Source: a virus. From it: a DNA stretch of 44,862 nucleotides. Shown here piece after piece: positions 1 to 44,862 of this stretch; within the stretch, counting starts at the first letter, position 1; each line of letters starts with the position of its first letter. The stretch lies in the IMG/VR virus record IMGVR_UViG_2547132370_000003, positions 1-44,862 of that record; one strand, written 5' to 3'. Under the pieces are notes generated by a model. The model worked only from the letters and a program-made list of their open reading frames with translations, ran no database searches and was not told the DNA's origin. The position numbers and the translations under genes were made by a program.

Positions 1-44
1 TCATAATCCCTTGGTCGGCGGTTCAAATCCGTCCACCGCTACCA
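1..44 (+). tRNA. 3' portion of a tRNA gene with anticodon CAU (Met or Ile2 type); the 5' half lies left of the window
   Basis: The sequence parses as anticodon loop tCATaa, stem tccct, variable loop tggtc, T-stem ggcgg, T-loop ttcaaat, ccgtc, acceptor caccgct, discriminator a, then CCA. The anticodon stem is not the GGG/CCC type of initiator tRNA. Confidence 0.65.
1..44. repeat. attL core (tRNA-proximal copy of the 44-bp att duplication)
   Basis: tcataatcccttggtcggcggttcaaatccgtccaccgctacca is identical to 44819-44862. Confidence 0.9.
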
Positions 45-105: not shown

Positions 106-146
106 GTTAGTCACTTTTTTTCCCCTGTTTAGAAATGTTAGTCACT
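106..146 (+). promoter_or_regulatory. Two direct copies of GTTAGTCACT (106-115 and 137-146), putative integrase arm-type binding sites
   Basis: The 10-mer occurs twice here and once near attR (44724-44733), all in the same orientation. Confidence 0.4.
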
Positions 147-1219
147 CCCCTCTTTTCCTGCCGCTGCTCCAGGGCGCGATTGGAGAGCTTGGCGATGGCA
201 TTCACCGCGCGGGTTTTCTGCTCGGCATGACGCACATATACGCTCACGGATGCGGCCGTAGTGTGTCCCGTGATCGACATGATTTCCCGTTCCGTGCATC
301 CCATTTCCGCCAACCATGATGCCGCTGTCGCCCGCAGGCCATGCCACACAATTCCTTTCAGCCCGGCAGACCGGATTGCCTTACTGACAGCGGATTGAAA
401 CTGCCCTAGTTCCCATGGCCTGCCCGGTGCGTACGTCAGGATGGTATCCGCAGTGCGCAGCGTCAACTCCCGTTCAAGGACGCTTTTCAGTTCGGGATGG
501 CAAGGTATCCATACCTTTGCGCCCGTCTTCTCCTGCACGACCTCGATCACGTCCCCATCAAAGGCGCTCCAGGTCATGGCAATCTGGTCGATCCCGCGTT
601 GCCCCGTACCCAGCGCAAGCAGAAGGGGCAGCCGAAACTGCGGCTTTTCCCGCAGGAAGGTCTGAATTTCATCACGCGTCCATGCCCGATAGCCCGGACC
701 GGTCTTGAGCCGTTTGGGACGAAGGGCCGGGTTATCGGAACGCATGCCGATCTCGATGGCGTAGCTCATCAGGATTGAGAGCATCGATACCGTCTTGTTG
801 GCACGACGCGGGCTTGGAATCGGGTCATCCCCTTCTTTCCGGCCGGGGCGGAAAGCGTAGCGATCGCGGACCAGCCTTACGGCTGCCCTGTCCAGTTCAG
901 ACACCAGCGCCATGCCGAAATCATCCTCCAGCGGCTGGAGAAACTTTTCATAGTCCTTCCGCGTGCTGGGCTTGAGCTGCGTCCATTCCGGTGTTCCCCG
1001 ATAACGGGCTATCAGTTCGGCCAGGCTGCCGGGAATAATGCCCGGCCGAGGCCTTTCGCTTTGCTCAAAACGGTTATGGATTTCCTGGTAGGACTTCAGA
1101 AACTCGGGGCTGCCGATCTCGCCCGCGATCCGCAGGCGAACACCATGCCGACGGTAATAAGCGTATTTTTTGCGACGGGCCTGATAGGTATTAACGTAAG
1201 GTAGAACGACGTTGGCCAC
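107..1219 (-). CDS. int: Tyrosine-recombinase phage integrase
   Basis: This lies within ORF 107..1435. The C-terminus carries HGLRATAASWLAEMG and ITGHTTAASVSVYVRH (H-x-x-R, H, Y catalytic pattern). The start is set at GTG 1219, with GGAAG 4 nt upstream, giving the N-terminus VANVVLPYVNTYQ. The upstream ATGs at 1324 and 1435 would overlap the xis-like gene heavily. Confidence 0.85.
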   Translation of the reverse strand: MANVVLPYVNTYQARRKKYAYYRRHGVRLRIAGEIGSPEFLKSYQEIHNRFEQSERPRPGIIPGSLAELIARYRGTPEWTQLKPSTRKDYEKFLQPLEDDFGMALVSELDRAAVRLVRDRYAFRPGRKEGDDPIPSPRRANKTVSMLSILMSYAIEIGMRSDNPALRPKRLKTGPGYRAWTRDEIQTFLREKPQFRLPLLLALGTGQRGIDQIAMTWSAFDGDVIEVVQEKTGAKVWIPCHPELKSVLERELTLRTADTILTYAPGRPWELGQFQSAVSKAIRSAGLKGIVWHGLRATAASWLAEMGCTEREIMSITGHTTAASVSVYVRHAEQKTRAVNAIAKLSNRALEQRQEKRGVTNISKQGKKSD

Positions 1220-1499
1220 TGGTCTTCCCTGCTGCCGCTGCAGCAGCAGTCCATGAATTCGTTGTCCGTTTCTGTCCGGGCCTGGCTGAGGCGGCCTGAC
1301 CCTTGATCCGGTCCATCCAGGCATCGAGTTCTTCAATGAACCAGACGACCCGGCGGCCGGAAATATGATGGGGTCTGGGCGCATTGCCTTCGGCCACTTC
1401 TCGCCGCAGCGTCGTGACACTGATGCCACCGGCATACGCGGCCGCCAGTTCCTCGCTCATGGCACGCGGCCAATACGGCAGGCGCGATGCATCCTTCAT
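1191..1499 (-). CDS. Small HTH DNA-binding protein, excisionase/AlpA-like
   Basis: MKDASRLPYWPRAMSEELAAAYAGGISVTTLRREVAEGNAPRPHHISGRRVVWFIEELDAWM has the Xis/AlpA-type pattern. It sits directly upstream of int. Its ATG at 1499 overlaps the upstream stop codon (ATGA). Confidence 0.6.
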   Translation of the reverse strand: MKDASRLPYWPRAMSEELAAAYAGGISVTTLRREVAEGNAPRPHHISGRRVVWFIEELDAWMDRIKGQAASARPGQKRTTNSWTAAAAAAGKTSGQRRSTLR

Positions 1500-4809: not shown

Positions 4810-5160
4810 TCATTTCGTGGACATCGCTTTTCCTGTTTTGATCCAGATATCCAATTTCTCCGAATCCAATTCATTAGCCAGCTCAGCGATTTCCTTATAA
4901 CGCGCGGCTTTTAGGCTTTCTTTTGGATCAAATAACAATTGCTCGGGGGTGGCTTTTAACAATTCCGCCACCCTTACGAATTGCGACAACGTCATATTTA
5001 CCTTACCATTCAGCCACTTAGAGACAGATGGTTCGGACATCCCAAGTCCCTCAGCTAGGTGTCGCTGAGTCACGCCACGCAAGCGCATCCAAGGTCGAAC
5101 GAACCGCAACGTGTGGCAGTTCAGCTCTACTTCTTCGGGTGTGAGATGCTTGTCGCTCAT
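4810..5160 (-). CDS. XRE-family HTH repressor (CI-like candidate)
   Basis: The HTH is GVTQRHLAEGLGMSEPSVSKWLNGKVNMTLSQFVRVAELL. The gene is divergent from a second XRE gene across a 92-bp spacer. Confidence 0.8.
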   Translation of the reverse strand: MSDKHLTPEEVELNCHTLRFVRPWMRLRGVTQRHLAEGLGMSEPSVSKWLNGKVNMTLSQFVRVAELLKATPEQLLFDPKESLKAARYKEIAELANELDSEKLDIWIKTGKAMSTK

Positions 5161-5172
5161 GGCGAAACGGTG

Positions 5173-5245
5173 CCACTACACGTGCACATAGTGGATGCCA
5201 CCACATGAAAACTTTCTTGACCTGAAAGTTTCATCTGAATAAATC
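5173..5245. promoter_or_regulatory. Switch region with inverted repeats overlapping a candidate rightward promoter
   Basis: ATGAAAACTTTC (5205-5216) and its near-complement TGAAAGTTTCAT (5223-5234) flank TTGACC (5217-5222). TAAATC lies 17 nt downstream (5240-5245) and 7 nt before ATG 5253. A second inverted repeat pairs CCACTA with TAGTGG (5173-5194). Confidence 0.4.
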
Positions 5246-5252
5246 TCGGTGC

Positions 5253-5486
5253 ATGAGCTTACGTGTCTTCCTTAAGCAGGCCGACCTGACCCAACGGCAA
5301 CTGGCAAAAATCGTGGGTGTTAGCGAACCCACTGTTTCTCGCTGGATCACGGGAACTGCTCTGGTACCGACGGAAAAGCTCAGAACTGTCGCCGATACAT
5401 TGGGGATATCGATCGAAGAATTGGTCCCGAAAAGCCCTGTTCCATCGTCTTTGACCGATATCTTCGAGCAGAGGGGGGCGGCATGA
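5253..5486 (+). CDS. XRE-family HTH protein (Cro-like candidate)
   Basis: The HTH is LTQRQLAKIVGVSEPTVSRWITGTALVPTEKLRTVADTLG. No SD is visible, so the mRNA may be leaderless. Confidence 0.8.
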   Translation: MSLRVFLKQADLTQRQLAKIVGVSEPTVSRWITGTALVPTEKLRTVADTLGISIEELVPKSPVPSSLTDIFEQRGAA

Positions 5487-5506
5487 ATATGATCCCCGCC
5501 CAAGAC

Positions 5507-6703
5507 CTAACTCTGCGTTCTGCGTTGCCAGAGATATTCTCCTATGTCGGGAATCGTCTGTCGTGTCTCTGCGTCCACTGCGGCCGTGATTCGGTCGATC
5601 TTGAACTGCCTGTCGTCCTTAACCCCCTCGCAGTATGCGTAAAGATCGACGACCTGGTGGGTATCCTCGGCAGGGCACAAAAACCCGATGCGGTGCGGGA
5701 CAACAGTCCGAGAGGTTTTGGTGCCGCTTATCTCGGTATAATCAATATTTATTGGGGCCGATTTCACATAAGCATCTTCCGGCGTCTCACGTCGATCGCG
5801 CACGATCTCTTTGACGGAAGTAGTGATGGACTGCAGGAATGCGACCAGCCCTGCGCTGTCGAGTACTTCGCCAGTATCCGGCAGCCATGCTTTTTCAATA
5901 TTGGTGAAAAGAAAAGCACGGCGTCCATCCCTCAGTTCGCAAAACGCATTAATGTTGGCGATCTGATCACATCCGGTTTTCCTATTTACGTAGACTGTAT
6001 AAGACGTAATGCAAATAGTTCTTTCGGTTCGACTATAGCCATCATTGTTATAGATGATTGTGATACGCTCTTTTTTTGTATTGCATCGTTTATAATCATC
6101 ATTCCAAAGGATGTCGGCTCTCGGAATTTTTTGTATTTCTGGCTCTTTATCAGAAGAAATTACTGTGTTTTGGGGGCTAACAGGTTCCACATTACGCGGC
6201 TGGGTATCGTTCCATATTCGCCGAAGCCACAGGTATTTCCCAATGTTTGGGATATCTTCTCCGGTTTCGGCATCAGCAGCTCCCTTGATCCGGCTGTATT
6301 TGAACTGGCGCGGAGCCTTCCGCAATTCGCAGTAGGCATGAATGTCTGTGATGATGACCACGTCATCCTTGTTGACGTAGAAATCGAGCTTCTGCGGCAC
6401 GATGGTGCGCTGGGTCGCGTCCCCTGCCCCATCCTGATAGTCGATGATGATTCGTGTCTTCTGGATCTCGACCGTGGAGATTTCCTGTTTGGCGCGGCGA
6501 CGTCGCGGATTGGGCGGTTCGACCTCAGCCGTGTTCCAGTCATGGAGGGCCTTCTTCGCGCCCGTTCTGGCAAACAGGACATGGATCATGGCTATCGGGA
6601 ACAATACCCAGCCGTAGATCAGCCATGGAAAGAAGGATCGGCCCTTCATCGCGGCAATAATGCCGGGCAGAGAGGCCACAAGAATAATGGCGATAATAGT
6701 CAT
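5507..6703 (-). CDS. Membrane-anchored protein with three tandem WYL-like modules (accessory gene)
   Basis: Two N-terminal hydrophobic helices are followed by three repeats of about 75 aa (nt 6227-6457, 5834-6070, 5531-5758). Each repeat has the pattern ..Y.D....(R)T..P....A(Y/F)CE....R.F...(R)I....TGE. The GC content is lower than in the flanks. The opposite-strand ORF 5483..6751 has no recognisable structure. Confidence 0.7.
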   Translation of the reverse strand: MTIIAIILVASLPGIIAAMKGRSFFPWLIYGWVLFPIAMIHVLFARTGAKKALHDWNTAEVEPPNPRRRRAKQEISTVEIQKTRIIIDYQDGAGDATQRTIVPQKLDFYVNKDDVVIITDIHAYCELRKAPRQFKYSRIKGAADAETGEDIPNIGKYLWLRRIWNDTQPRNVEPVSPQNTVISSDKEPEIQKIPRADILWNDDYKRCNTKKERITIIYNNDGYSRTERTICITSYTVYVNRKTGCDQIANINAFCELRDGRRAFLFTNIEKAWLPDTGEVLDSAGLVAFLQSITTSVKEIVRDRRETPEDAYVKSAPINIDYTEISGTKTSRTVVPHRIGFLCPAEDTHQVVDLYAYCEGVKDDRQFKIDRITAAVDAETRQTIPDIGEYLWQRRTQS

Positions 6704-6747
6704 TGTTTAATCTGTTCTTTTCCTGAAATCAGCCGCTGGGGGAGAGC

Positions 6748-6933
6748 ATGAGCATCACCCTGTCCATCCAGAAACGGGAAAAATATGTCGCTCAATTTTT
6801 TGGGCTTCCCGAGGACATGTTTTCGCAGATGTCCCTTCCCGTGGATGAGCTGGAAGAGCGGCTGCTTGAGTGGGAGTGCAATGCACGCAGGATCGCCTCC
6901 TGCGTGAAATCTGACCGACGGAGTGCAGCATGA
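6748..6933 (+). CDS. Hypothetical small early protein
   Basis: A 61-aa ORF with a GGGGAGAG SD just upstream and an ATGA overlap with the next ORF. Confidence 0.5.
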   Translation: MSITLSIQKREKYVAQFFGLPEDMFSQMSLPVDELEERLLEWECNARRIASCVKSDRRSAA

Positions 6934-7943
6934 AAATCGACATGCTCGGTTTCCGGGTCGATGAATGGGAAATTTCCAACGCCGACCCGGATCAGACCTG
7001 TGCCATCAGCCCCCGGCAACTGGTTGCCCTGCTGAAGGCGCTGGAAAATGCGTGTGAAGATAGGAACAGGCCGACGCAATCCAGTCCTCTGTCGTCGTGG
7101 CTGGAAGGGTTTGAAGCCGGATGCGAATTGTCACGGAACCGTCAGGGAGTATCGCTTTCCTCTCTCCCGCCCCTCCTGCAAGCGGCGGCAGCGTTTTCGC
7201 CTGCATGGGGCTTAACTCCATCTCAACCTGAAATGCCTGTTTCGTCTCCTTCAGGTCGTGGAGAATCGACAGCTTCACAAGCCTTATCTGATTCGGATCA
7301 AGGTTCATCGGATTCCTCTCCATCGTTGTGTGTGGTAGCCGACAAGGTAGAGGATACGGGGGATGACGTCATGTCATCCCCCGGCACGACAGCCATTCCT
7401 GACGGGATCACCGCCGCCCGGTCGCAGCACGCCGGTACGAAAAAAAGCCAGGTGTCTCACCTTGTGGACTTTCTCGTTTTCCATGGGATGGCGACCGATG
7501 CCGAGGATGCACGCTGCCTCATCCGAAAGGGTTCGGTCAGTATCAACGGTGTTGCTGTCAGCAGTGAGCATTGCCGCCTGTTTCCGGGTGACGTGATTAC
7601 GCGGGATTTCGCGTGGCATCCGCCTTTCTGTGCCCCCCTTGTCGATGGAATCCCGGTCAAGCCGCGTGATCCCATCACGGTTACGGTCGATGCCGATTTC
7701 GACGCGGTGCTGGCCCAGCGCCACGGTGAAAGGCTGGAAATCGTGACCGGGCAGAGTGGCGTGTCCGGTTTCATGAACGGCATTCGTCCCCCCACTTTGG
7801 CAGATGCCCAGAACACGCACGCGATGGTCATGCGTCTTTTTGCCAATGCGCGGCGGCTCAACGCGAAAATCAAGGCATTGCGGGGGGCGACCACCGGCGC
7901 TGCAGGTAGCAAGGCAAGGCAGAAGGGGCAGCCCCGTGGCTAA
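6930..7943 (+). CDS. Hypothetical early protein with an S4-like RNA-binding motif in the C-terminal half
   Basis: SHLVDFLVFHGMATDAEDARCLIRKGSVSINGVAVSSEHCRLFPGDVI resembles the S4 fold consensus. The middle third (about 7100-7330) is low-complexity with poor third-position GC. An alternative start at ATG 7371 has a GGGGGA SD. Confidence 0.5.
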   Translation: MKIDMLGFRVDEWEISNADPDQTCAISPRQLVALLKALENACEDRNRPTQSSPLSSWLEGFEAGCELSRNRQGVSLSSLPPLLQAAAAFSPAWGLTPSQPEMPVSSPSGRGESTASQALSDSDQGSSDSSPSLCVVADKVEDTGDDVMSSPGTTAIPDGITAARSQHAGTKKSQVSHLVDFLVFHGMATDAEDARCLIRKGSVSINGVAVSSEHCRLFPGDVITRDFAWHPPFCAPLVDGIPVKPRDPITVTVDADFDAVLAQRHGERLEIVTGQSGVSGFMNGIRPPTLADAQNTHAMVMRLFANARRLNAKIKALRGATTGAAGSKARQKGQPRG

Positions 7944-13178: not shown

Positions 13179-14054
13179 ATGGTTAGCGGAGACCGCGCCA
13201 TGCCGTCCACTGATGAGGCCCCAAAAGCCCCTCAGAACTCGGCCGACAATCTGCTGATCAAGACATGGCTTCACAACCGTGGTGCGAACACGCGCCGCGC
13301 GTATGAAAGCGATGTCCGCGCCTTCCTTGCGCATGTGGGCAAACCGCTGGCGCAGGTGACGGCGGCCGACCTGCAAAGCTGGTACGACAGCCTGACGGGA
13401 GCGGACGCCACGCGACGGCGGAAGCTGATGGCCGTCAAGTCGCTGCTGTCCTATGGCGCTGCCATGGAAATGCTGCCCCGCGATGTGGGGCCTGCCGTCC
13501 GTGTGCCGAAGATGCGCGACAGCCTTCATGAGCGGATCCTTACGCAGGAACAGGTGCGCGACCTCATTGATGGGGAAACGGACCCGCGCAGGCGGACAAT
13601 GCTGCGCGTCCTGTATGCCACCGGCCTGCGTATCTCCGAGCTTTGCGCCATCCGGTGGAAAGACCTCAAGCGCCGCCAGCAGGGCGGCGTCGCCCATGTG
13701 TTCGGCAAGGGCGGCAAGAACAGAACCGTCGAGATCCCCGCCAAGGTGTGGAAGGAGATCGTGGCGCTGCGTGTTGATAGTCGGCCAGAAGCGCCGATGG
13801 TCCCCGGCCACGATGGCGGTCCGCTTAGCGTCGATGCGGTCCACCGCTCCGTTAAGCGGGCCGCGAAGCGCGCAGGCCTGCCATCGCAGGTTTCCGCGCA
13901 CTGGCTGCGCCACGCGTACGCCAGCCACATGCAGGACAACGGCGCGCCGGCGCATGTGGTGCAGCAGCAGCTGGGCCACACATCGCTGGCGACCACGACA
14001 CGATACAGCCACGCACGCGAAGGCGCGGGCGCTGGGAAATTTCTGGACCTGTAG
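13179..14054 (+). CDS. Second tyrosine recombinase, XerC/XerD-like
   Basis: ATGLRISELCAIRWKDL, HWLRHAYASHM and LGHTSLATTTRYSH give the R, H-x-x-R and H..Y catalytic pattern. A perfect TATAAT lies at 13165-13170, 8 nt before ATG 13179. An alternative start at ATG 13200 has a GGAG SD. Confidence 0.85.
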   Translation: MVSGDRAMPSTDEAPKAPQNSADNLLIKTWLHNRGANTRRAYESDVRAFLAHVGKPLAQVTAADLQSWYDSLTGADATRRRKLMAVKSLLSYGAAMEMLPRDVGPAVRVPKMRDSLHERILTQEQVRDLIDGETDPRRRTMLRVLYATGLRISELCAIRWKDLKRRQQGGVAHVFGKGGKNRTVEIPAKVWKEIVALRVDSRPEAPMVPGHDGGPLSVDAVHRSVKRAAKRAGLPSQVSAHWLRHAYASHMQDNGAPAHVVQQQLGHTSLATTTRYSHAREGAGAGKFLDL

Positions 14055-14098
14055 CGTCACGCACGCCGGTCCCCTCACCCGTGAAGCAAGGAAGCCTC

Positions 14099-14278
14099 AT
14101 GAAGCCGAGCCGCAAGCCGCGCCAGCCCGCAACGGATGTCACTGTCTGGGAGCGTGCCGCCGCGCATTATCGTCGTATTGCGGGCCGTGACCGTCGCCCT
14201 GGCGTGAAGATCTGGGCCAGCGACCGCGCGGCGGAATGCGCGGCCAACATGCGGCGTGCGCAGCGGGAGGCCGCATGA
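14099..14278 (+). CDS. Small basic hypothetical protein
   Basis: Starts at MKPSRKPRQPATDVTVWERAA with an AAGGAAG SD 5 nt upstream. Confidence 0.45.
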   Translation: MKPSRKPRQPATDVTVWERAAAHYRRIAGRDRRPGVKIWASDRAAECAANMRRAQREAA

Positions 14279-19278: not shown

Positions 19279-20927
19279 TGGGCGTTGGTGATTTCATCCG
19301 CAGGGTGGCATCGCCTCTGGTTCCGAAATCTGGCCCCGGGCGGCGCATCCTCAACGCGCTGACCTCGCCGTTCGGCACACCGTATGATGCGGCCGACATG
19401 TACGGCCAGCGCATGCAGGGGTGGCAGCCTTACCTGGGGTCCGCTGATACGGAATTAAGCCCGTATCGTGACCGGATCGTCAGCCGCGTGCGTGACCTGG
19501 TCCGCAATGACGGCTGGGCATCCGGGGCGGTTACACGGACACTGGACAATGCCATCGGCGTCAAGCTTCGCCCCATATCGAAGCCTGACTACCGTGCCCT
19601 TGCCCGCCTGAGCGGCACCACCGCTTTCGATGCGGTCTGGGCGAAGGAGTATGCGCAGGCCGTGGACGCCCACTGGCGCACATGGGCGGACGATCCGCTG
19701 CGCTACAATGATACCGAGCGCATGCTGACCTTTGGCCAGCAGATGCATCTGGCCTTCCGTCACCTGATCGTGGATGGCGATGCCCTGGCGCTGCTGCCAT
19801 GGATGGAGGACCGCGTCGGCCTTGGCGCCGCGCAATATGCCACGACCGTCCAGATCATCGATCCGGACCGCCTAAGCAACCCGCAGCAGACCTTCGACCT
19901 GAAGAACCTGCGCAACGGGGTCGAGATTGACCCGAACAGTGGCGCGCCGATTGCCTACTGGATCCGCAAGGCCCATCAGGCGGACTGGTACAGCGCGGCC
20001 GACACGGTCACATGGGACCGTTACGAACGGGAGACCGGCTGGGGCCGTCCCAATGTCGTGCATATGTTCGAGCATCATCGCGGCTCCCAGCATCGCGGCG
20101 GTGCCGGCATCCTGACGCCCGTCCTGCAGCGCCTGAAAATGCTGATCAAATACGACGGGACCGAACTGGACGCCGCGATCATCAACGCGACGTTCGCAGC
20201 CTACATCGAAAGCCCGTTCGATCCCGCCATGACGGCCGAGGGTCTGGAAGGTGGCGACGAGCAGCTCGCCTATTATCAGGACCAGCGCATCGCCTTCCAC
20301 CAGCATCGGAACATCTCGCTTGCGGGATCCCGCATGCCGATCCTGTTCCCGGGCGAGAAGATCAACACCGTCTCGGCAGCCCGACCGGCCAGCAACTTCC
20401 GCGACTTCGAGCGCGCGGTGCTGAACAACGTCGCCAGTGGCGCGGGCCTCTCGCCCATGCAGGTCAGCAATGACTGGTCGGACGTGAACTATTCGTCCGC
20501 CCGTGGATCCCTGCTGGAAGCATGGAAGACCATGAAGCGCCGGCGCGATGATTTCAGCATCGGCTTTCCGACCCTTATCCGCCTGTCCTGGCTGGAAGAG
20601 TCCATGGAAGAGGATGCCCTGCCGCTGCCGCGCGGCGCGCCACCGTTCATTCAGGCGCGCGCAGCCTATGCCCGTGCCATCTGGCTTGGCCCCGGCCGTG
20701 GCTGGATCGATCCGGTGGCGGAGAAACAGGGTGCCGTGTTGGGCATGGATGCCGGCCTCTCCACCCTTGAGACCGAATGCGCGGAGAACGAAGGCGCGGA
20801 CTGGGAGGAAACCCTCGATCAACGCGCCATCGAAGTGCAGGCGTTCAAGGACCGCAACCTGCCCACCCCGGAATGGGCCGGGCAGAACCTTGCATCGAAA
20901 ACCGACAGGAAACCGGAAGCAGAATGA
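19278..20927 (+). CDS. Portal protein, lambda gpB family
   Basis: The start is MGVGDFIRRV, at a TGATG overlap with the gpW-like gene. The protein is 549 aa. The N-terminal 167 aa of ORF 18777..20927 are discarded because they overlap the terminase and gpW-like genes. Confidence 0.9.
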   Translation: MGVGDFIRRVASPLVPKSGPGRRILNALTSPFGTPYDAADMYGQRMQGWQPYLGSADTELSPYRDRIVSRVRDLVRNDGWASGAVTRTLDNAIGVKLRPISKPDYRALARLSGTTAFDAVWAKEYAQAVDAHWRTWADDPLRYNDTERMLTFGQQMHLAFRHLIVDGDALALLPWMEDRVGLGAAQYATTVQIIDPDRLSNPQQTFDLKNLRNGVEIDPNSGAPIAYWIRKAHQADWYSAADTVTWDRYERETGWGRPNVVHMFEHHRGSQHRGGAGILTPVLQRLKMLIKYDGTELDAAIINATFAAYIESPFDPAMTAEGLEGGDEQLAYYQDQRIAFHQHRNISLAGSRMPILFPGEKINTVSAARPASNFRDFERAVLNNVASGAGLSPMQVSNDWSDVNYSSARGSLLEAWKTMKRRRDDFSIGFPTLIRLSWLEESMEEDALPLPRGAPPFIQARAAYARAIWLGPGRGWIDPVAEKQGAVLGMDAGLSTLETECAENEGADWEETLDQRAIEVQAFKDRNLPTPEWAGQNLASKTDRKPEAE

Positions 20928-21751
20928 AGAGCCTCGCGCTTGCCCAGAGGATGCTGGGCCGCCCGCTCGCCCTCACGCCTGACCGCATGGAGGTCGTGCG
21001 GCACCTGCTGGCGCATGGTTCGGACGATATGGCCATGTTCGGCCCCGTTCAGGAAAAGGCGGACCGAGACCCCGTGCTAGGCACAGTGATTTCCGATGTG
21101 GCCGTCATCCCCGTTTCCGGCGTGCTGCTGCCCGGTGAAAGCCCCGGCTGGTGGTGGAGCGGGGCGACGTTCTACGAGGACATCAATGTCGCCTTCCAGC
21201 AGGCCATCAATGATCCGTCCATCAAGGCCGTTGTCCTCCTGGTCGACAGCCCCGGCGGAACGGTCGCCGGCTGCTTCGATCTGGCCGACCGCATTTACGA
21301 AGGACGCGGGGCAAAGCCCATCGTCACGATCGTAAACGAAAGCGCCTATTCCGCCGCCTATGCCCTCGCCAGTTCGGCCGACACGATCATCGTGCCGCGC
21401 ACGGGCGGGGTCGGCTCGATCGGTGTCGTCGGCATGCATGTCGATATCACCGGCGCGCTGGAACAGGCCGGCATCAAGGTCACGACCTTCCAGTTCGGCG
21501 ACCAGAAAACAGATTCCTATCCCACGACCACCATGTCGGAAGAGGCCGCCAAACGGTTTCAGGCCGACATCGATGCGATGGGTGAACTGTTCGTCGCCAC
21601 GGTTGCACGCAACCGCGACATTCCGGCCGACCGTGTGCGCGCCACACAGGCCGGAACCTTCCTCGGCCAGCGCGGCGTCGATGCCGGCCTGGCCGATGCC
21701 GTGATGGGGGCAGAGGCGGCATTCCGCGAACTGCTCGACACGATCGGCTGA
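20924..21751 (+). CDS. Head maturation protease, S49/SppA (lambda gpC-like)
   Basis: LLVDSPGGTVAGCFDLADRIY and ESAYSAAYALASSADTIIVPRTGGVGSIGV. An ATGA overlap links it to the portal gene. Confidence 0.85.
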   Translation: MKSLALAQRMLGRPLALTPDRMEVVRHLLAHGSDDMAMFGPVQEKADRDPVLGTVISDVAVIPVSGVLLPGESPGWWWSGATFYEDINVAFQQAINDPSIKAVVLLVDSPGGTVAGCFDLADRIYEGRGAKPIVTIVNESAYSAAYALASSADTIIVPRTGGVGSIGVVGMHVDITGALEQAGIKVTTFQFGDQKTDSYPTTTMSEEAAKRFQADIDAMGELFVATVARNRDIPADRVRATQAGTFLGQRGVDAGLADAVMGAEAAFRELLDTIG

Positions 21752-40537: not shown

Positions 40538-40668
40538 CGCCCTTTATGCAGGGCGTCATCTCCGGTGCGGGCGGCGTTGTCGTCCTCATTGGGCTGCTGG
40601 TCACGATCCCGCTCAAGCTGCATGCGCTTTATGTGGCAACACAATTGCAAAACCGTGGGATTGAATAA
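40534..40668 (+). CDS. 44-aa single-TM peptide, below the ORF-track cut-off
   Basis: Hand translation gives MTPFMQGVISGAGGVVVLIGLLVTIPLKLHALYVATQLQNRGIE. An ATGA overlap links it to the lipoprotein gene. Confidence 0.45.
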   Translation: MTPFMQGVISGAGGVVVLIGLLVTIPLKLHALYVATQLQNRGIE

Positions 40669-40670
40669 TG

Positions 40671-41045
40671 TCAGACTGAACGCAAGACGGAAGGACGTTT
40701 ATCGCCATGACGAAGATAGTTAATAATCTCATTAGCAATGACATTCCGAGGATCAATAGATCTTTGAATAAATGAATTTCCTTTGGTAGATACAAAATTT
40801 CCTGAAGGGGTCGTATATTTATCAAGCCATTGAATTATATCATCTCTATCGCTAACATTATCGTAATAAATATTTATATCTATGTGAGTATCTCTCCCCA
40901 ACTTATCTCTCCGTATGTCTGCATCCAATTCAGCAGACACGGTACAAGATGCTCCATAGGCCAATGATATTTTACCGGTAGGATTGGTTTTCAGAAGATC
41001 TACACTAACCAATACACTTCCACCATTATCACTAAAGAAAGTCAT
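40671..41045 (-). CDS. Hypothetical 124-aa protein encoded in a strongly AT-rich cassette
   Basis: It is the only long ORF in the AT-rich block at about 40650-41150. Codon usage differs from the rest of the phage. I recognise no family. Confidence 0.6.
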   Translation of the reverse strand: MTFFSDNGGSVLVSVDLLKTNPTGKISLAYGASCTVSAELDADIRRDKLGRDTHIDINIYYDNVSDRDDIIQWLDKYTTPSGNFVSTKGNSFIQRSIDPRNVIANEIINYLRHGDKRPSVLRSV

Positions 41046-41096
41046 ATTTTATTTACCCCATACGTTAATTGAAAATATTTAATTATAGAATTACAT

Positions 41097-41564
41097 TCAT
41101 AACACAACGGAATTGAGAATATTATTTTTCATATCCGTAGAAACCAATATCTCGACCGTGGGCTGTCGCCCCAGTTCATGCAATGCTGCTTCAATACGCC
41201 CGATCTTGCTTTCATGTAATAGATCCCGCATGCGTCGCACGGACGATTCAGCCACGCCCAGACGGCGCGCCAGTTCTACATTGCTGATCCTGTTCTCCAG
41301 CATGGCCGTATGCAGCGCCAGCTTGGCGGCTTCCAGCATGGGCACATAGACCAGAGGGCGACCATTGGCCGCAGGCGGCACGGGAACGGCCGCACCGTCA
41401 TCCACATAGATGGACAGCGATGTGACCAGCAGGTCCTGGGCCTCGCGCAGGGCTTCCTCCCGGGTTGCGCCCTCGGTTGCCCCCGGCAGCCCCTCGAATG
41501 AAGCCGTGATGGTGCCGTCCGGATTGGTCTCCAGATCGACCGGGTAAGCGTAAAGCATCCTCAT
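41097..41564 (-). CDS. hicB: HicB-family antitoxin with a C-terminal HTH; no adjacent hicA
   Basis: MRMLYAYPVDLETNPDGTITASFEGLPGATEGATREEALREAQDLL…ISNVELARRLGVAESSVRRMRDLLHESKIGRIEAALHELG is colinear with E. coli HicB as I remember it. The start is ATG 41564 or 41558. Confidence 0.75.
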   Translation of the reverse strand: MRMLYAYPVDLETNPDGTITASFEGLPGATEGATREEALREAQDLLVTSLSIYVDDGAAVPVPPAANGRPLVYVPMLEAAKLALHTAMLENRISNVELARRLGVAESSVRRMRDLLHESKIGRIEAALHELGRQPTVEILVSTDMKNNILNSVVL

Positions 41565-41626
41565 ACCGCCATATGCGAGTTCTCTGCCAGAGCCAGCAGA
41601 TGATTGAGAAGGATATGGCGTCCGCG

Positions 41627-41968
41627 CTATTCTGCCGCCACATCCAGCGCCCGGCGCGCCGCATCTGGTTCTCGCCCCAGAATACGCAGCAGCGCCTGCA
41701 CGGCCGGATCCAGTGCTACACGCCCCTGCTCCCAGTTGCGCCATGTCGCCACAGGGATGCCGGTTAGATCCGCGATCTGTTTCTGGGTCATGTGCAGGGT
41801 TTTCCGCACGGTTGCGGGTGTCGGGTATGGGGCGGACAGATGGCTTGTATCATCCGTGCCGTCCTCACGTGCCTGACGGTCGATATCATCCTCTGTGGTG
41901 GCATTCACCTTGTCCCGGTCGATGGTTCCACCGTGCCGGGCGATCTGGCTCAATGTCATCCTTGCCAT
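41627..41968 (-). CDS. brnA: BrnA-like antitoxin (C-terminal HTH)
   Basis: MARMTLSQIARHGGTIDRDKVNATTEDDIDRQAREDG…MTQKQIADLTGIPVATWRNWEQGRVALDPAVQALLRIL. It overlaps the brnT stop codon. An alternative start is ATG 41959. Confidence 0.7.
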   Translation of the reverse strand: MARMTLSQIARHGGTIDRDKVNATTEDDIDRQAREDGTDDTSHLSAPYPTPATVRKTLHMTQKQIADLTGIPVATWRNWEQGRVALDPAVQALLRILGREPDAARRALDVAAE

Positions 41969-42240
41969 TTCTTCCACTCCTTGTCGTGCATGCGGCGCGC
42001 GGAGATGATCCACGTAACATCGCCGCGCCGTGTGTAGACGACCATGTAACGGCACCCTTCGATCATCCCGACTGCCTGAATCCGTGTCTCACCGTAATCC
42101 TTGCGGGTGTCTTCCCGTTCGATCACTTCTCCAAGAAAAATGCGGGCGGCGTATATGAAATCGAAACCACGGATGGAGAGGCACGCTGCGCTTTTTTCAT
42201 CATGCCAGTCAAAGGCGTGGTGTGTTGCCGTCATAGGCAT
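41956..42240 (-). CDS. brnT: BrnT-family (DUF497) ribonuclease toxin
   Basis: FDWHDEKSAACLSIRGFDFIYAARIFLGEVIEREDTRKDYGETRIQAVGMIEGCRYMVVYTRRGDVTWIISARRMHDKE. Confidence 0.8.
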   Translation of the reverse strand: MPMTATHHAFDWHDEKSAACLSIRGFDFIYAARIFLGEVIEREDTRKDYGETRIQAVGMIEGCRYMVVYTRRGDVTWIISARRMHDKEWKKWQG

Positions 42241-42370: not shown

Positions 42371-43171
42371 ATGAAAAATCGCAAACTGGGCTGCCGCCCG
42401 GCCGAACGCCGTCCCAATCAGCCCCATCTATCCGCCATGCGTGGCTTCTGTGCGCGGCAGGCCCCTGCCCGGCTCGACCGCAGCGGTCTCAATCCCGCAC
42501 CGCTGATGCTGGGCAATGATGTGCTGGGGGACTGCACCAGCGCGGGCATCGGCAATCACCTGCGCGCTACGGCGGCGCTGGCAGGCTTCCAAATTGCCGT
42601 CACCACACCTGCCGCCGTGCAGTTCTATTCCCGCTCCACCGGCTACGTGCCCGGCAATCCCGCCACGGACAACGGCGGCGTGGAGGTGGACGTACTGACG
42701 ACGGCCCTGCGCGACGGCTATGCGTTGACAGACCAGACCCTGTTTCCGATCTGGGGCAGCGCCGATCCGGGCGACCTGAACGGGATCCGCAACATCACCG
42801 CAGGCCTGTCTGCCGCCTATCTGGGTGTGCAGCTTGCCACGGCGGATATGTGGGAGGACCAGGACGGCAACCTGCCGCCAGTATGGGATACGGACAGTCC
42901 GGCTGACCATGGCGATCCGACGCCGGGCAGCGCGGGCGGCCACTGCCTGCTGCTGTGGGATTACGCGGGCACGGCTGACACCGACCTTGTGACGCTCCTG
43001 ACATGGGGTAGCAAGCAGAAAGCAACATGGCGCTGGGTCAGGTCGCGCATCATGGAGGTGCACGGTCTGGCGTGGGGGCAACTGCACGCGCCCGGTGGTC
43101 TGTATCCGGCTGGTGATGACTGGGCTGCGCTGGTCGCGGCGAATGAAGCATACTTGCGCGGTGCGGCATGA
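42371..43171 (+). CDS. Papain-like (C1-type) cysteine peptidase candidate
   Basis: LMLGNDVLGDCTSAGIGNH carries the candidate catalytic Cys. SAGGHCLLLWDY carries the candidate His. LLTWGSKQKATWRW resembles the NSWG-like segment. A GGAG SD lies 5 nt upstream. Confidence 0.55.
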   Translation: MKNRKLGCRPAERRPNQPHLSAMRGFCARQAPARLDRSGLNPAPLMLGNDVLGDCTSAGIGNHLRATAALAGFQIAVTTPAAVQFYSRSTGYVPGNPATDNGGVEVDVLTTALRDGYALTDQTLFPIWGSADPGDLNGIRNITAGLSAAYLGVQLATADMWEDQDGNLPPVWDTDSPADHGDPTPGSAGGHCLLLWDYAGTADTDLVTLLTWGSKQKATWRWVRSRIMEVHGLAWGQLHAPGGLYPAGDDWAALVAANEAYLRGAA

Positions 43172-43794
43172 ACCGGGGCGACCGCGCGGCATTCCTATTC
43201 GCCTGCATGGTCGGACTGTCGGGATGTGCTATTCATCCCGCCAAGGTCAGCACAACCATTCCGCAGGCCATGGCAGGCATCCAGTCCAGTCTGGCACAGG
43301 CCGGAGTGGTATCGGTATCGCACGCGGGCGATTGGACCCCGGCGCAGGATGCGCTGTTCGTCCGCGCCATCCGGGCGGCACAGTACCGTCAGGACCGGCC
43401 CGACCCGGTGGTGGGAACGATTGCGGGCGATGTGACCCTGCAACTGTCTGGGCAGTTCACGCAGGGCGGACAGTTCAGCGTGGAGGCGATCACGACCGCG
43501 CCCACCTTTGGCATGCAGGCCGATGCCAGCCGGGTGCGCGGACAGACGGTCAGCCTGCCAGTGGCCTATGCGCCCCTATCATCCATGCCCGATGTGGAGA
43601 TGGGACGGCAGCTTGGATATGAGACTGAGATGTTGGCACAGAACGATGATACCCGGCATACCGAGGCTGCCCGGCTAATCGCCAACCGGGAAGCATTGCA
43701 GAGCCGGGTGCGAACAATGATTAATAGCTGGAAACAACGAAATTGTATCGGGGCTGCACCGACAGCCCCTTTTGTTGGAAGAACAAAACCCTAG
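43168..43794 (+). CDS. Lipoprotein translationally coupled to the peptidase gene
   Basis: MNRGDRAAFLFACMVGLSGC carries an L-S-G-C lipobox. An ATGA overlap links it to the peptidase gene. Confidence 0.65.
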   Translation: MNRGDRAAFLFACMVGLSGCAIHPAKVSTTIPQAMAGIQSSLAQAGVVSVSHAGDWTPAQDALFVRAIRAAQYRQDRPDPVVGTIAGDVTLQLSGQFTQGGQFSVEAITTAPTFGMQADASRVRGQTVSLPVAYAPLSSMPDVEMGRQLGYETEMLAQNDDTRHTEAARLIANREALQSRVRTMINSWKQRNCIGAAPTAPFVGRTKP

Positions 43795-43817
43795 GAGGGT
43801 ATCTCCTAACGTCTTGA

Positions 43818-44558
43818 TTATCCTTTAAAAATTTTATCTAGAACTGTATGTAGTTCTTCAACTTCTTGAGGTGCCCACTCACGATACATCGCCTCGCAAG
43901 GCGCAGATGGGGCGAGCGCTCCCGATGAAACCTGATCCAGCACCTGCTGCACCTTTGCGTCGTTCGCCGCCGCCTGGACCACCGGAATTTCCTTCGCTTT
44001 TGGGTCCGAATACATAACCTTCCCCTTTGTCTTGAGGGCTACCGCTGTATCGTGCAAGGTAGCCGTCTCATTCAGATTATTCGTTCTGTCCGAGAAAGCA
44101 AGATACCTAGTGCTTCCTCCGCTATAACGATCAGATTGCTGCGCCGTTGCCACTGCCTTAATAGCATCACGGTTTGCTGACCAGCAGTTATATGCATAAA
44201 GACCGCCGGATCCTGCGAAATAAGCTTCTTCACCATATTGCCGAGCTGTTCCATGAAAGAACTCGAGCTTGCTAGTTGTAATGTTGGCGATATGTAGAGC
44301 TATGCTATTCGTGTTCGCACCGGTACCCACCGAAACAGGGGGAATTTTCCCTCGGGTCGTTGGGTCTGACCCAAGCCACCTCTTCCATGCCTCGATTAAC
44401 GCACCGTTGCCGGCAAAAACGAAAGCCCAATTTCCAACGACGGAAATTTTTTCAAACCCGGTGTCATCAACAAACACTATAAAGCCCGGCCCGTCAACAG
44501 ACCACCGCGTGTCACAAGCCAACTGACCAGCGTCAAGGTCGATCACATTTGTTGTCAC
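43818..44558 (-). CDS. Ntn-hydrolase, HslV/proteasome-beta-like peptidase with a C-terminal extension of about 80 aa
   Basis: GTG start with a GGAAG SD. (M)TTNVIDLDAGQLACDTRWSV…FEKISVVGNWAFVFAGNGA… and …AYFAGSGGLYAYN… align by eye with HslV TTIV…DG..IAGDGQ…K…AGFAG… and …IGSGGPYA…. The GC content is lower than in the phage core. Confidence 0.6.
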   Translation of the reverse strand: MTTNVIDLDAGQLACDTRWSVDGPGFIVFVDDTGFEKISVVGNWAFVFAGNGALIEAWKRWLGSDPTTRGKIPPVSVGTGANTNSIALHIANITTSKLEFFHGTARQYGEEAYFAGSGGLYAYNCWSANRDAIKAVATAQQSDRYSGGSTRYLAFSDRTNNLNETATLHDTAVALKTKGKVMYSDPKAKEIPVVQAAANDAKVQQVLDQVSSGALAPSAPCEAMYREWAPQEVEELHTVLDKIFKG

Positions 44559-44723
44559 GTCGACTTCTTCCGCCCCCGTAAAGTTTTGGGGCTTATATCG
44601 ACATGATCTTATCCACGGAAGACCCAGTTTAGCGAATATCGTTCATGCAAGATATGTTACCATCTATCCCATAATAGGCAAATATGACGCAGGCACGTGT
44701 GAGAATTTCGAATCGGAACAATC

Positions 44724-44818: not shown

Positions 44819-44862
44819 TCATAATCCCTTGGTCGGCGGTTCAAATCCGTCCACCGCTACCA
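44819..44862. repeat. attR core: duplicated tRNA 3' end, not a functional tRNA
   Basis: It is identical to 1-44. The upstream sequence (…tgatattatttgaaaaacaggaaaa) cannot form the acceptor 5' strand AGCGGTG or a D-arm. Confidence 0.9.

What the first reader, a model, noticed from the sequence alone, without database searches (positions are those of the whole stretch)
43818..44558. Prophage-borne HslV/proteasome-like Ntn hydrolase next to attR
The minus-strand 246-aa ORF begins (M)TT. It aligns by eye with HslV/proteasome beta subunits. It has an N-terminal Thr nucleophile after Met removal, then DAGQLACDTR, a conserved Lys (FEKISV), FAGNGA, and later AGSGGLYAYN compared with GSGGPYA. An extra C-terminal region of about 80 aa follows.

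The gene is alone, in a lower-GC segment, at the extreme end of the prophage. That is a typical position for lysogenic-conversion or defence cargo. No HslU-like ATPase partner is present. I am not aware of a described function for stand-alone proteasome-like peptidases in prophage cargo.
Basis: partly seen in the sequence, partly recalled or inferred. Interest (0 to 1): 0.65.

Follow-up and report, generated by a model that had tools for sequence, protein, structure and literature searches.

The report
Prophage-borne stand-alone proteasome-like peptidase gene
At the far end of an integrated virus sits a lone gene for a proteasome-like enzyme with an intact catalytic site and no ATPase partner; it fits a family already catalogued in 2021 (function still unknown), so it is real but not a new kind of thing.

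Summary
Window 43818-44558 (-) is a 246-aa ORF with a GTG start, beginning M-T-T. It lies in ~50% GC DNA inside a ~63% GC prophage, 260 bp from the 44-bp attR repeat.

AlphaFold gives pLDDT 95.8. All top Foldseek hits are proteasome beta subunits, BPH and HslV. Across 199 relatives the catalytic set is essentially invariant: Thr1, Asp17, Lys33, Gly47, Ser129, Asp166 and Ser169 equivalents.

It is not an HslV orthologue:
- Helix H2 is missing.
- A ~60-aa C-terminal helical domain has no match among solved structures.
- Pfam, NCBIfam and a profile comparison with HslV give nothing.
- No gene co-occurs with it in 39 distinct contexts except integrases.

These features match the "RPC" cluster (related to the phage proteasome homologue PPH, with a C-terminal extension) of Fuchs, Alva and Lupas 2021. 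PHROG 1040 "peptidase HslV family" also matches. RPC membership is inferred from features, because I could not obtain the reference sequence.

Relatives sit at accessory-gene positions of temperate phages (beside att/integrase, CI-like repressors or lysis genes) and in islands carrying defence genes. A role in phage-host or phage-phage conflict is plausible but untested.

Verdict: new member of a known, uncharacterised kind. Interest is moderate to low.

The parts
43818..44558 (-). Complete gene for the 246-aa proteasome-like (RPC/PPH-type) N-terminal-threonine hydrolase. GTG start at 44558-44556, stop at 43820-43818.
   Evidence: ORF list; PHROG 1040 at E 5.4e-15; AF2 pLDDT 95.8; Foldseek hits to proteasome beta, BPH and HslV.
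44004..44558 (-). Ntn/proteasome-like core, residues 1 to about 185. Proposed catalytic residues: Thr2 (nucleophile after fMet removal), Asp16, Arg18, Lys37, Ala49-Gly50 (oxyanion hole), Gly116-Ser117-Gly118, and Asp143 with Ser146-Gly147-Gly148. Helix H2 is absent, and a helix at 168-178 is inserted before the last strand.
   Evidence: Conservation in 199 relatives; alignment to yeast beta5 at AG / GSG / D..SGG; secondary structure.
43821..44003 (-). Family-specific C-terminal helical domain, residues about 186-246. It carries conserved AAAND-like, Gly213, Ala219-Pro220 and Trp228 positions. No structural relative is known.
   Evidence: Conservation; AF2 of the isolated region, pLDDT 84.8; no Foldseek PDB hit below E 4; no significant PDB sequence hit, best E 0.55.
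44564..44571 (-). Purine-rich Shine-Dalgarno-like GGAAGAAG, 5 nt upstream of the GTG start.
   Evidence: Read from the sequence; function inferred.
43791..43809 (-). Terminator-like hairpin followed by a T run, directly after the stop codon. It makes the gene its own transcription unit.
   Evidence: Consensus scan. This is a pattern match only.
43750..43769 (+). Terminator-like GC hairpin ending the convergent + strand phage genes (42371-43171 and 43168-43794).
   Evidence: the neighbouring genes match phrog_19005 and phrog_28078.
44819..44862 (+). attR: a 44-bp copy of the 3' part of a tRNA, running from the anticodon loop to CCA. No intact tRNA is found in the DNA beyond this end.
   Evidence: Exact repeat search; sequences; no tRNA found in L001.
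1..44 (+). attL: the identical 44-bp repeat, with the integrase beside it.
107..1435 (-). Tyrosine integrase of the prophage. In the circular phage form it is the neighbour of the peptidase gene across attP.
   Evidence: phrog_1 at E 4e-46; Pfam Phage_integrase.

Best explanation
The gene encodes a stand-alone proteasome-like N-terminal-nucleophile hydrolase. It belongs to the PPH/RPC branch of the proteasome-like family, not to HslV. A temperate myovirus carries it as a self-contained accessory ("moron") gene between the last late-region genes and attP.

Proposed mechanism. These steps are inferred unless marked as shown.
1. Host methionine aminopeptidase removes the initiator residue and exposes Thr2 as both nucleophile and free alpha-amine.
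2. Lys37 and Asp16 (equivalent to Lys33 and Asp17 of 20S beta subunits) activate Thr2.
3. The Gly50 backbone forms the oxyanion hole.
4. Ser117, Asp143 and Ser146 (equivalent to Ser129, Asp166 and Ser169) hold the N-terminus in place.
5. The enzyme cleaves an amide bond, or conceivably transfers an acyl group.

Three things are shown. No unfoldase or other partner gene travels with it. The ring-contact helix H2 is missing. A conserved family-specific C-terminal helical domain is added. From these I infer an ATP-independent enzyme whose substrates are chosen by that C-terminal domain rather than by an HslU-fed chamber.

The gene is predicted to be transcribed on its own. Its recurrent positions suggest it acts on a host or competitor-phage protein in phage-host or phage-phage conflict, such as superinfection exclusion, defence or counter-defence.
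For: Fold:
- AF2 gives pLDDT 95.8 and pTM 0.91.
- Eighty-four PDB hits have E <= 1e-3, and all 50 listed are proteasome beta, BPH or HslV.
- The best viral hit is a 146-aa Caulobacter phage 'proteasome subunit beta', TM 0.74.
- PHROG 1040 'peptidase HslV family' matches at E 5.4e-15.
- The family profile weakly hits yeast beta5 with AG, GSG and D..SGG in register.

Catalytic set in 199 relatives:
- Thr2 184/184 and Lys37 198/198.
- Asp16 189/191 and Arg18 190/190.
- Gly50, Gly116, Gly118 and Asp143 199/199.
- Position 117 and position 146 are always Ser or Thr.
- 174/199 start (M/V/L)TT.

Match to the RPC/PPH description in PMC8665760:
- H2 is absent.
- The C-terminal domain has no known structure.
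- There is no propeptide.
- Named relatives are all Proteobacteria.

Stand-alone status:
- No shared neighbour was found in 17, 34 and then 61 loci (39 distinct groups), apart from integrases.
- The gene has its own terminator.

Mobile cargo:
- Low GC.
- Seventeen IMG/VR viral contigs carry it.
- Neighbours are CI-like repressors, integrases, holins and spanins.
- It lies within about 300 bp of a tmRNA or tRNA gene in L005 and L006.
- It lies next to type I R-M, NACHT, RVT genes and Bil/E1-E2 systems in islands.
- Copies >= 90% identical sit in different contexts.

Not the head protease: the prophage has its own at 20777-21751.
Against: - Nothing biochemical is known for this family.
- Pfam, NCBIfam and PADLOC give no hit.
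- phmmer against PDB sequences gives none.
- The profile hits to PDB proteasomes are only E ~0.1.
- The oligomeric state could not be modelled. Isolated proteasome subunits are usually inactive outside an assembly (PMC8665760).
- RPC membership is inferred from features. The reference sequence WP_140207863 could not be retrieved.
- The conflict role rests only on gene position and neighbours.
- Some loci, such as L009 and L018, show only housekeeping-looking genes among the few neighbours that were annotated.
- tblastn finds no copy in 50,697 deposited phage genomes.
- No minus-strand sigma-70-like promoter was detected upstream.
Confidence: 0.7

Rival explanations
1. It is a phage-borne HslV orthologue that docks onto the host's HslU ATPase to form an altered HslUV protease.
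For: The protein starts with TT and has a GSGG motif like HslV. HslV structures appear among the fold hits (1m4y, 4hnz). PHROG 1040 is labelled 'HslV family'.
Against: NCBIfam has no HslV hit. H2 is missing and an extra C-terminal domain is present. No HslU lies near any of 61 loci. Proteasome beta and BPH score at least as well as HslV.
Confidence: 0.05
2. It is a single-gene anti-phage defence or superinfection-exclusion effector expressed by the lysogen. It would cleave a protein of an incoming phage, or a host protein to abort infection.
For: It occupies moron hot spots next to att/integrase, CI-like repressors and lysis genes. In islands it sits beside type I R-M, NACHT, reverse transcriptases and Bil/E1-E2 systems. 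In the window it shares the prophage end with BrnT/antitoxin and HicB-like cargo. It has low GC and a patchy, mobile distribution.
Against: There is no PADLOC match. The argument is guilt by association only, with no enrichment statistic computed. Several loci have housekeeping-looking genes among the neighbours that were annotated.
Confidence: 0.3
3. It is a counter-defence or host-takeover protease used by the phage itself, for example to destroy a host immunity protein or ubiquitin-like conjugates. Alternatively it acts on the phage's own lysis-lysogeny regulators.
For: It is carried by phages and viral contigs and often sits next to CI-like repressors. Two loci sit beside ubiquitin-like conjugation systems (L003 BilC/BilD-like; L012 JAB-ThiF plus Multi_ubiq-E2).
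Against: The ubiquitin-like neighbours were found in only 2 of 61 loci, and none appeared in the 45 added viral and metagenomic loci. That fits chance co-location in defence islands. In the window the gene faces away from the lytic operons and has its own terminator, which suits expression in the lysogen rather than during lytic growth.
Confidence: 0.15
4. It is not a protease but a specific protein ligase or transpeptidase, as connectase is within the same superfamily, or an amidase acting on a non-protein substrate.
For: Connectase shows that a monomeric proteasome homologue with added helices can be a ligase (PMC8665760). Missing H2, an added domain and the lack of an unfoldase all argue against a classical degradation chamber.
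Against: There is no sequence or structural resemblance to connectase beyond the shared core. The top fold hits are true proteases. Connectase lacks both H1 and H2, whereas H1 is present here.
Confidence: 0.1

Closest known systems
[quoted passage not shown]
   Same: Proteasome-like core with the full catalytic set; no propeptide; lacks helix H2; extra C-terminal domain without a known structure; Proteobacteria only; a small family (79 nr90 sequences in 2021, against 191 50%-identity clusters at E <= 1e-30 here).
   Different: Identity with the cluster was not checked against its reference sequence. The paper does not mark RPC as phage-associated, whereas here the family is found in a complete prophage, in 17 IMG/VR contigs and in integrative islands. 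No function is known for RPC.
[quoted passage not shown]
   Same: A stand-alone proteasome homologue of tailed phages and prophages. It lacks H2. The best viral structural match of this protein is a 146-aa Caulobacter phage protein of this size class.
   Different: PPH has about 140 residues and no C-terminal domain, whereas this protein has 246. No copy of this family was found by tblastn in deposited phage genomes.
HslV (ClpQ), the peptidase of HslUV
   Same: Ntn fold; TT N-terminus exposed by Met removal; GSGG motif; bacterial.
   Different: No significant profile similarity; no HslU partner; H2 missing; C-terminal domain added. The double-hexamer assembly is untested.
BPH (Betaproteobacterial proteasome homologue; PDB 5ovs/5ovt)
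   Same: A stand-alone bacterial proteasome homologue with no known ATPase partner. It is among the best fold matches (TM 0.56-0.57 on the target).
   Different: BPH is about 185 aa with H1-H4 and forms double heptamers. It has no C-terminal domain and is not known as phage cargo.
PHROG 1040 'peptidase HslV family'
   Same: Significant profile match over residues 1-178 (E 5.4e-15). It is a family of phage proteins.
   Different: The match covers only the core. The annotation is a label, not a tested function.

Membership tests
Proteasome-like family (Ntn hydrolase clan) | Alpha-beta-beta-alpha Ntn sandwich fold | tested here: met
   AF2 pLDDT 95.8. All 50 listed Foldseek PDB hits are proteasome beta, BPH or HslV, at probability 1.0 and E down to 3e-5.
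Proteasome-like family (Ntn hydrolase clan) | N-terminal Thr/Ser nucleophile with Asp17, Lys33 and Gly47 equivalents | tested here: met
   Thr2 184/184, Asp16 189/191, Lys37 198/198 and Gly50 199/199. The AG motif aligns to A46-G47 of yeast beta5. The Asp and Lys equivalences are inferred from spacing and invariance, not from coordinates.
Proteasome-like family (Ntn hydrolase clan) | Ser129 / Asp166 / Ser169 equivalents (GSG and D..SGG) | tested here: met
   G116-S/T117-G118 and D143 at 199/199, and S/T146 at 199/199. They align in register with yeast beta5 GSG and RDAYSGG.
Proteasome-like family (Ntn hydrolase clan) | Match to the Pfam Proteasome model (PF00227) | tested here: not met
   No Pfam family matched, even at E <= 10. 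The protein is too divergent for that model, as PMC8665760 reports for its new clusters.
RPC cluster (PMC8665760) | Lacks helix H2 (shared with PPH) | tested here: met
   A single helix at 52-63 is followed by a loop and then strands at 84-92. The Gly50-to-Ser117 spacing is 67 residues, against 82 in 20S beta subunits.
RPC cluster (PMC8665760) | Additional C-terminal domain with no match to known structures | tested here: met
   Residues about 186-246 are helical. There is no Foldseek PDB hit below E 4 and no significant PDB sequence hit.
RPC cluster (PMC8665760) | Restricted to Proteobacteria | tested here: met
   All named homologues are alpha-, beta- or gamma-proteobacteria. Metagenomic members are unassigned.
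RPC cluster (PMC8665760) | Sequence clustering with the reference WP_140207863 / KEGG OC.1493145 | not testable with these tools
   The reference sequence is not retrievable here. Accession look-ups of 20 family members did not contain it.
PPH | Compact subunit of about 140 residues with no extra domain | tested here: not met
   The protein is 246 aa. The family median is 246 and the range 195-328.
HslV | Significant sequence or profile similarity to HslV | tested here: not met
   hhalign of A1 against E. coli HslV gives probability 0.3% over 11 columns. There is no NCBIfam hit.
HslV | Genetic or functional partnership with the HslU AAA+ ATPase | tested here: not met
   No conserved neighbour of any kind other than integrases was found in 39 distinct contexts. 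Interaction with a host HslU encoded elsewhere was not tested.
HslV | Double hexameric ring | not testable with these tools
   Only single-chain prediction was available.
Known anti-phage defence systems (PADLOC 2.0) | Match to a defence-protein model | tested here: not met
   No PADLOC family matched at E <= 1.

The most novel reading that the evidence does not exclude
The RPC-type proteasome homologue is a single-gene, ATPase-independent immune or anti-immune effector of temperate phages and genomic islands. Its C-terminal domain would recognise a specific phage or host protein, which the threonine active site then cleaves. That would be the first biological role for a viral proteasome homologue and a new class of protease-based phage conflict gene.
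Probability: 0.25. Interest if true: 0.7.

Novelty: new member of a known kind. Interest (0 to 1): 0.35.

Why it matters
Proteasome homologues carried by phages have been catalogued, but none has a known substrate, assembly state or biological role. This example is a clean test case. It has a fully conserved catalytic set and its own transcription unit. It sits in a complete prophage with defined att sites, and it has relatives in Pseudomonas, Chromobacterium and Paraburkholderia that are easier to work with.

Two outcomes would be useful. One is showing that it protects lysogens or disarms host immunity. The other is showing that it works without a ring or an ATPase. Either would extend what proteasome-type enzymes are known to do. 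As a sequence finding alone it is an expected member of an already described family.

Tried and rejected
- Pfam, NCBIfam and PADLOC scans of the protein gave no hits.
- phmmer against PDB sequences gave no hits.
- hhalign of the family profile against E. coli HslV was not significant. I therefore rejected the HslV-orthologue reading.
- tblastn against 50,697 phage records found no copy.
- I looked for a conserved partner by all-against-all BLAST of neighbours in 17, then 34, then 61 loci. Only integrases recur.
- I followed the lead that two loci carry ubiquitin-like conjugation systems next to the gene. phmmer with those E1, E2 and JAB proteins found none in the other loci, so I treat it as co-location in defence islands.
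- I modelled the C-terminal domain alone and searched the PDB. There was no relative.
- I tried to find the RPC reference accession among 20 family members and failed.
- I considered the head-maturation protease role and rejected it, because the prophage has its own.
- The ARAGORN tRNA-Val call inside the window is not supported by Rfam.
- Literature searches found no functional study of PPH or RPC.

Full report
**What is there**

The window is a whole prophage. An exact 44-bp direct repeat, the 3' part of a tRNA from the anticodon loop to CCA, lies at 1-44 and 44819-44862. Between the repeats are:
- a tyrosine integrase at 107-1435 (-);
- terminase, portal, head-maturation protease, major head protein, tail sheath, tape measure, baseplate and tail fibre genes;
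- a transglycosylase-type endolysin.

The DNA comes from NCBI assembly GCA_025994375.1, contig BAQH01000014.1. The nearest deposited phage is Komagataeibacter phage phiKM1, at about 80% identity over a quarter of the last 6.9 kb.

The reported ORF is real. It spans 43818-44558 on the minus strand, is 246 aa long and starts with GTG. A purine-rich GGAAGAAG sits 5 nt upstream of the start. A hairpin with a T run (43809-43791, -) follows the stop codon. The convergent + strand genes (42371-43171 and 43168-43794; phrog_19005 and phrog_28078) end in their own hairpin. The gene is therefore an independent transcription unit, as far as pattern scans can show.

Its GC is 0.48-0.53, against about 0.63-0.68 in adjacent phage DNA. 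The start codon is 260 bp from attR. In the excised circular phage the gene would sit next to attP and the integrase.

**What the protein is**

Standard libraries are silent. Pfam, NCBIfam and PADLOC give nothing, and phmmer against PDB sequences gives nothing. PHROGs gives phrog_1040 "peptidase HslV family", E 5.4e-15, over residues 1-178.

A search of 5.8 billion proteins found 56 relatives of 219-263 aa, all unnamed and with no Pfam domain. Named sources are Roseateles, Paraburkholderia, Cupriavidus, Chromobacterium, Pseudogulbenkiania and Pseudomonas. An exhaustive profile search of 1.84 billion cluster representatives found 191 clusters at E <= 1e-30. Nearly all of the 150 listed are about 220-270 aa and match along most or all of the profile.

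The family profile hits yeast proteasome beta5 only weakly (E ~0.1). The alignment is still in register at AG (Ala46-Gly47), GSG (Ser129) and RDxxSGG (Asp166, Ser169).

AlphaFold2 with the 43-sequence alignment gives pLDDT 95.8 and pTM 0.91. Foldseek against the PDB gives 84 hits at E <= 1e-3. All 50 listed are proteasome beta subunits, Thiobacillus BPH or HslV. Against viral models, the best hit is a 146-aa "proteasome subunit beta" of Caulobacter phage CcrBL9 (TM 0.74 on the target). Many other phage proteins of 130-280 aa follow.

**Catalytic site**

In a MAFFT alignment of 199 family members:

| Residue here | 20S beta equivalent | Conservation |
|---|---|---|
| Thr2 | Thr1 | 184 of 184 with an intact N-terminus |
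| Asp16 | Asp17 | 189/191 |
| Arg18 | Arg19 | 190/190 |
| Lys37 | Lys33 | 198/198 |
| Gly50 | Gly47 | 199/199 |
| Gly116, Gly118 | GSG motif | 199/199 |
| Position 117 | Ser129 | always Ser or Thr |
| Asp143 | Asp166 | 199/199 |
| Position 146 | Ser169 | always Ser or Thr |

In addition, 174 of 199 sequences start (M/V/L)TT. The nucleophile is therefore exposed simply by removal of the initiator residue, with no propeptide. This equals the Thr1/Asp17/Lys33/Gly47/Ser129/Asp166/Ser169 set of 20S beta subunits. The Asp and Lys equivalences rest on spacing and invariance, because I could not inspect coordinates. Such conservation argues for an active enzyme.

**How it differs from HslV**

- The model has a single helix (52-63) where HslV and proteasome subunits have H1 and H2. 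The Gly50-to-Ser117 distance is 15 residues shorter than in 20S beta subunits.
- The last core strand (180-183) follows an inserted helix (168-178).
- About 60 further residues form a small helical domain with conserved Gly213, Ala219-Pro220 and Trp228.
- Modelled alone (pLDDT 84.8), this region has no PDB fold match below E 4 and no significant sequence match.

**Comparison with what is known**

Fuchs, Alva and Lupas (Bioinformatics 2021, PMC8665760) catalogued many new proteasome homologues. Three of them matter here:
[quoted passage not shown] - AAH is also found in phages.
[quoted passage not shown] It is found only in Proteobacteria, with 79 sequences in nr90.

They state that PPH and RPC are the only groups lacking H2. 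They also state that the C-terminal domain of RPC matches no known structure, and that propeptides occur only in proteasome beta and HslV.

Every one of these features was tested here and met. I therefore place the protein in RPC with about 75% confidence. The direct test, clustering with WP_140207863, was not possible. No paper in the library reports a function for PPH or RPC.

One modest addition to that paper: its table does not mark RPC as occurring in phages. Here the family is found in a complete prophage and in 17 IMG/VR viral contigs.

**Genomic context of relatives**

I collected 61 loci, from five exact-protein look-ups (besides the window's own contig, L001), 11 species genomes, 17 viral contigs and 28 metagenome contigs. 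They fall into 39 groups after merging copies >= 90% identical. All-against-all comparison of neighbouring ORFs finds no gene that travels with it. Only an integrase family recurs, in four groups. There is no HslU or any other ATPase partner.

| Setting | Loci |
|---|---|
| Within about 300 bp of a tmRNA or tRNA-Lys gene, at an island edge | L005, L006 |
| Directly beside an integrase | L003, L007, L010, L034-36 |
| Beside a CI/S24-type repressor in a prophage early region | L004, L015 |
| Beside Rz/spanin and tail-fibre genes at a prophage end | L017 |
| Next to type I restriction-modification | L006, L013 |
| Next to a NACHT protein | L014 |
| In the same island as reverse transcriptases (about 7-10 kb away) | L005 |
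| Next to a Bil-like system | L003 |
| Next to a JAB-E1 plus multi-ubiquitin-E2 system | L012 |

Pooled scans of 121 flanking proteins most often return transcriptional repressors, integrases, holins and spanins, and methyltransferases. Copies >= 90% identical occur in different contexts.

In the window, the same prophage end also carries BrnT, an MqsA/HTH antitoxin-like gene and a HicB-like gene.

The pattern is that of a mobile single-gene accessory cassette of temperate phages and islands. Only some of the neighbours at L009 and L018 were annotated, and those look like housekeeping genes. I did not compute an enrichment statistic.

**Mechanism and role**

The fold, the intact catalytic set and the lack of a partner are shown.

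The rest is inferred. Thr2 would act as the nucleophile after Met removal. The enzyme would be ATP-independent, and the C-terminal domain would provide substrate choice or assembly. The biological role is the weakest step. Position and neighbours favour phage-host or phage-phage conflict. Within that, a lysogen-expressed defence or exclusion function is somewhat more likely than counter-defence. The reasons are that the gene faces away from the lytic operons, has its own terminator, and shares its end of the prophage with toxin-antitoxin cargo.

The two ubiquitin-like neighbours are tempting for a proteasome relative. They are only 2 of 61 loci, and none appeared in the 45 added viral and metagenomic loci. 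I treat them as coincidence within defence islands.

A head-maturation role is excluded, because the phage has its own protease in the structural module. A ligase activity like that of connectase cannot be excluded.

**Verdict**

The gene is a new member of an already catalogued but functionally uncharacterised family, not a new kind of system. Interest is moderate to low as a discovery. It is higher as an experimental entry point to the unknown function of viral proteasome homologues.

Noticed in passing
window 40600-41200 (ORF 40671..41045, -): A very AT-rich patch (GC 0.35-0.37, against about 0.63 for the prophage). It holds a 124-aa ORF with only a sub-threshold Pfam hit to the TNT (tuberculosis necrotizing toxin) domain (E 1.2e-3, 19.7 bits against a cutoff of 27) and no PHROG. 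It looks like another recently acquired cargo gene.
   Followed up: partly
window 41097-42240 (-): A toxin-antitoxin cargo block: BrnT toxin (41956..42240), an MqsA/HTH antitoxin-like gene (41627..42055) and a HicB-like gene (41097..41744), according to the precomputed Pfam hits on the source contig. Phage phiKM1 carries RelA/SpoT-like and HicAB genes at the corresponding place.
   Followed up: partly
L001 9274-9525 (host DNA just outside attR of the window): An 83-aa ORF matches the prophage integrase (E 1.6e-8). It lies beside the att copy in the same att-integrase arrangement as attL. It is probably the remnant of an older element integrated in tandem at the same tRNA site.
   Followed up: partly
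window 14044-14119 (-): ARAGORN calls a tRNA-Val(CAC) inside the prophage, overlapping long ORFs. Rfam finds no tRNA or any other RNA family in the window at gathering score. This is probably a false call.
   Followed up: yes
window 5000-7000 (ORF 5483..6751, +): A second lower-GC stretch (0.51-0.52) holds a 422-aa ORF with no PHROG match. It may be another accessory gene near the integrase end.
   Followed up: no
L003 6458-9589 (Paraburkholderia terrae) and L012 11149-13604 (Ca. Methylopumilus MAG): Ubiquitin-like conjugation systems lie immediately next to homologues of the peptidase. L003 has a four-gene operon with BilC-like and BilD-like proteins. L012 has a JAB-ThiF fusion plus a Multi_ubiq-Prok-E2_E protein. 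They are not seen at the other loci.
   Followed up: yes
L019, L062, L063 (Rhodospirillales MAG and bog metagenome contigs): These are among the closest relatives found by DNA scan (59% identity over the matched segment) but match only residues 1-130. In L019 the ORF is only 87 aa, so the copies are apparently truncated or disrupted.
   Followed up: no
L007 10772-12013 (Roseateles sp.): A 413-aa protein with a CLP_protease domain lies convergent with the peptidase homologue, just beyond an integrase. Two unrelated protease genes therefore sit side by side at an element edge. There is no PADLOC match.
   Followed up: partly
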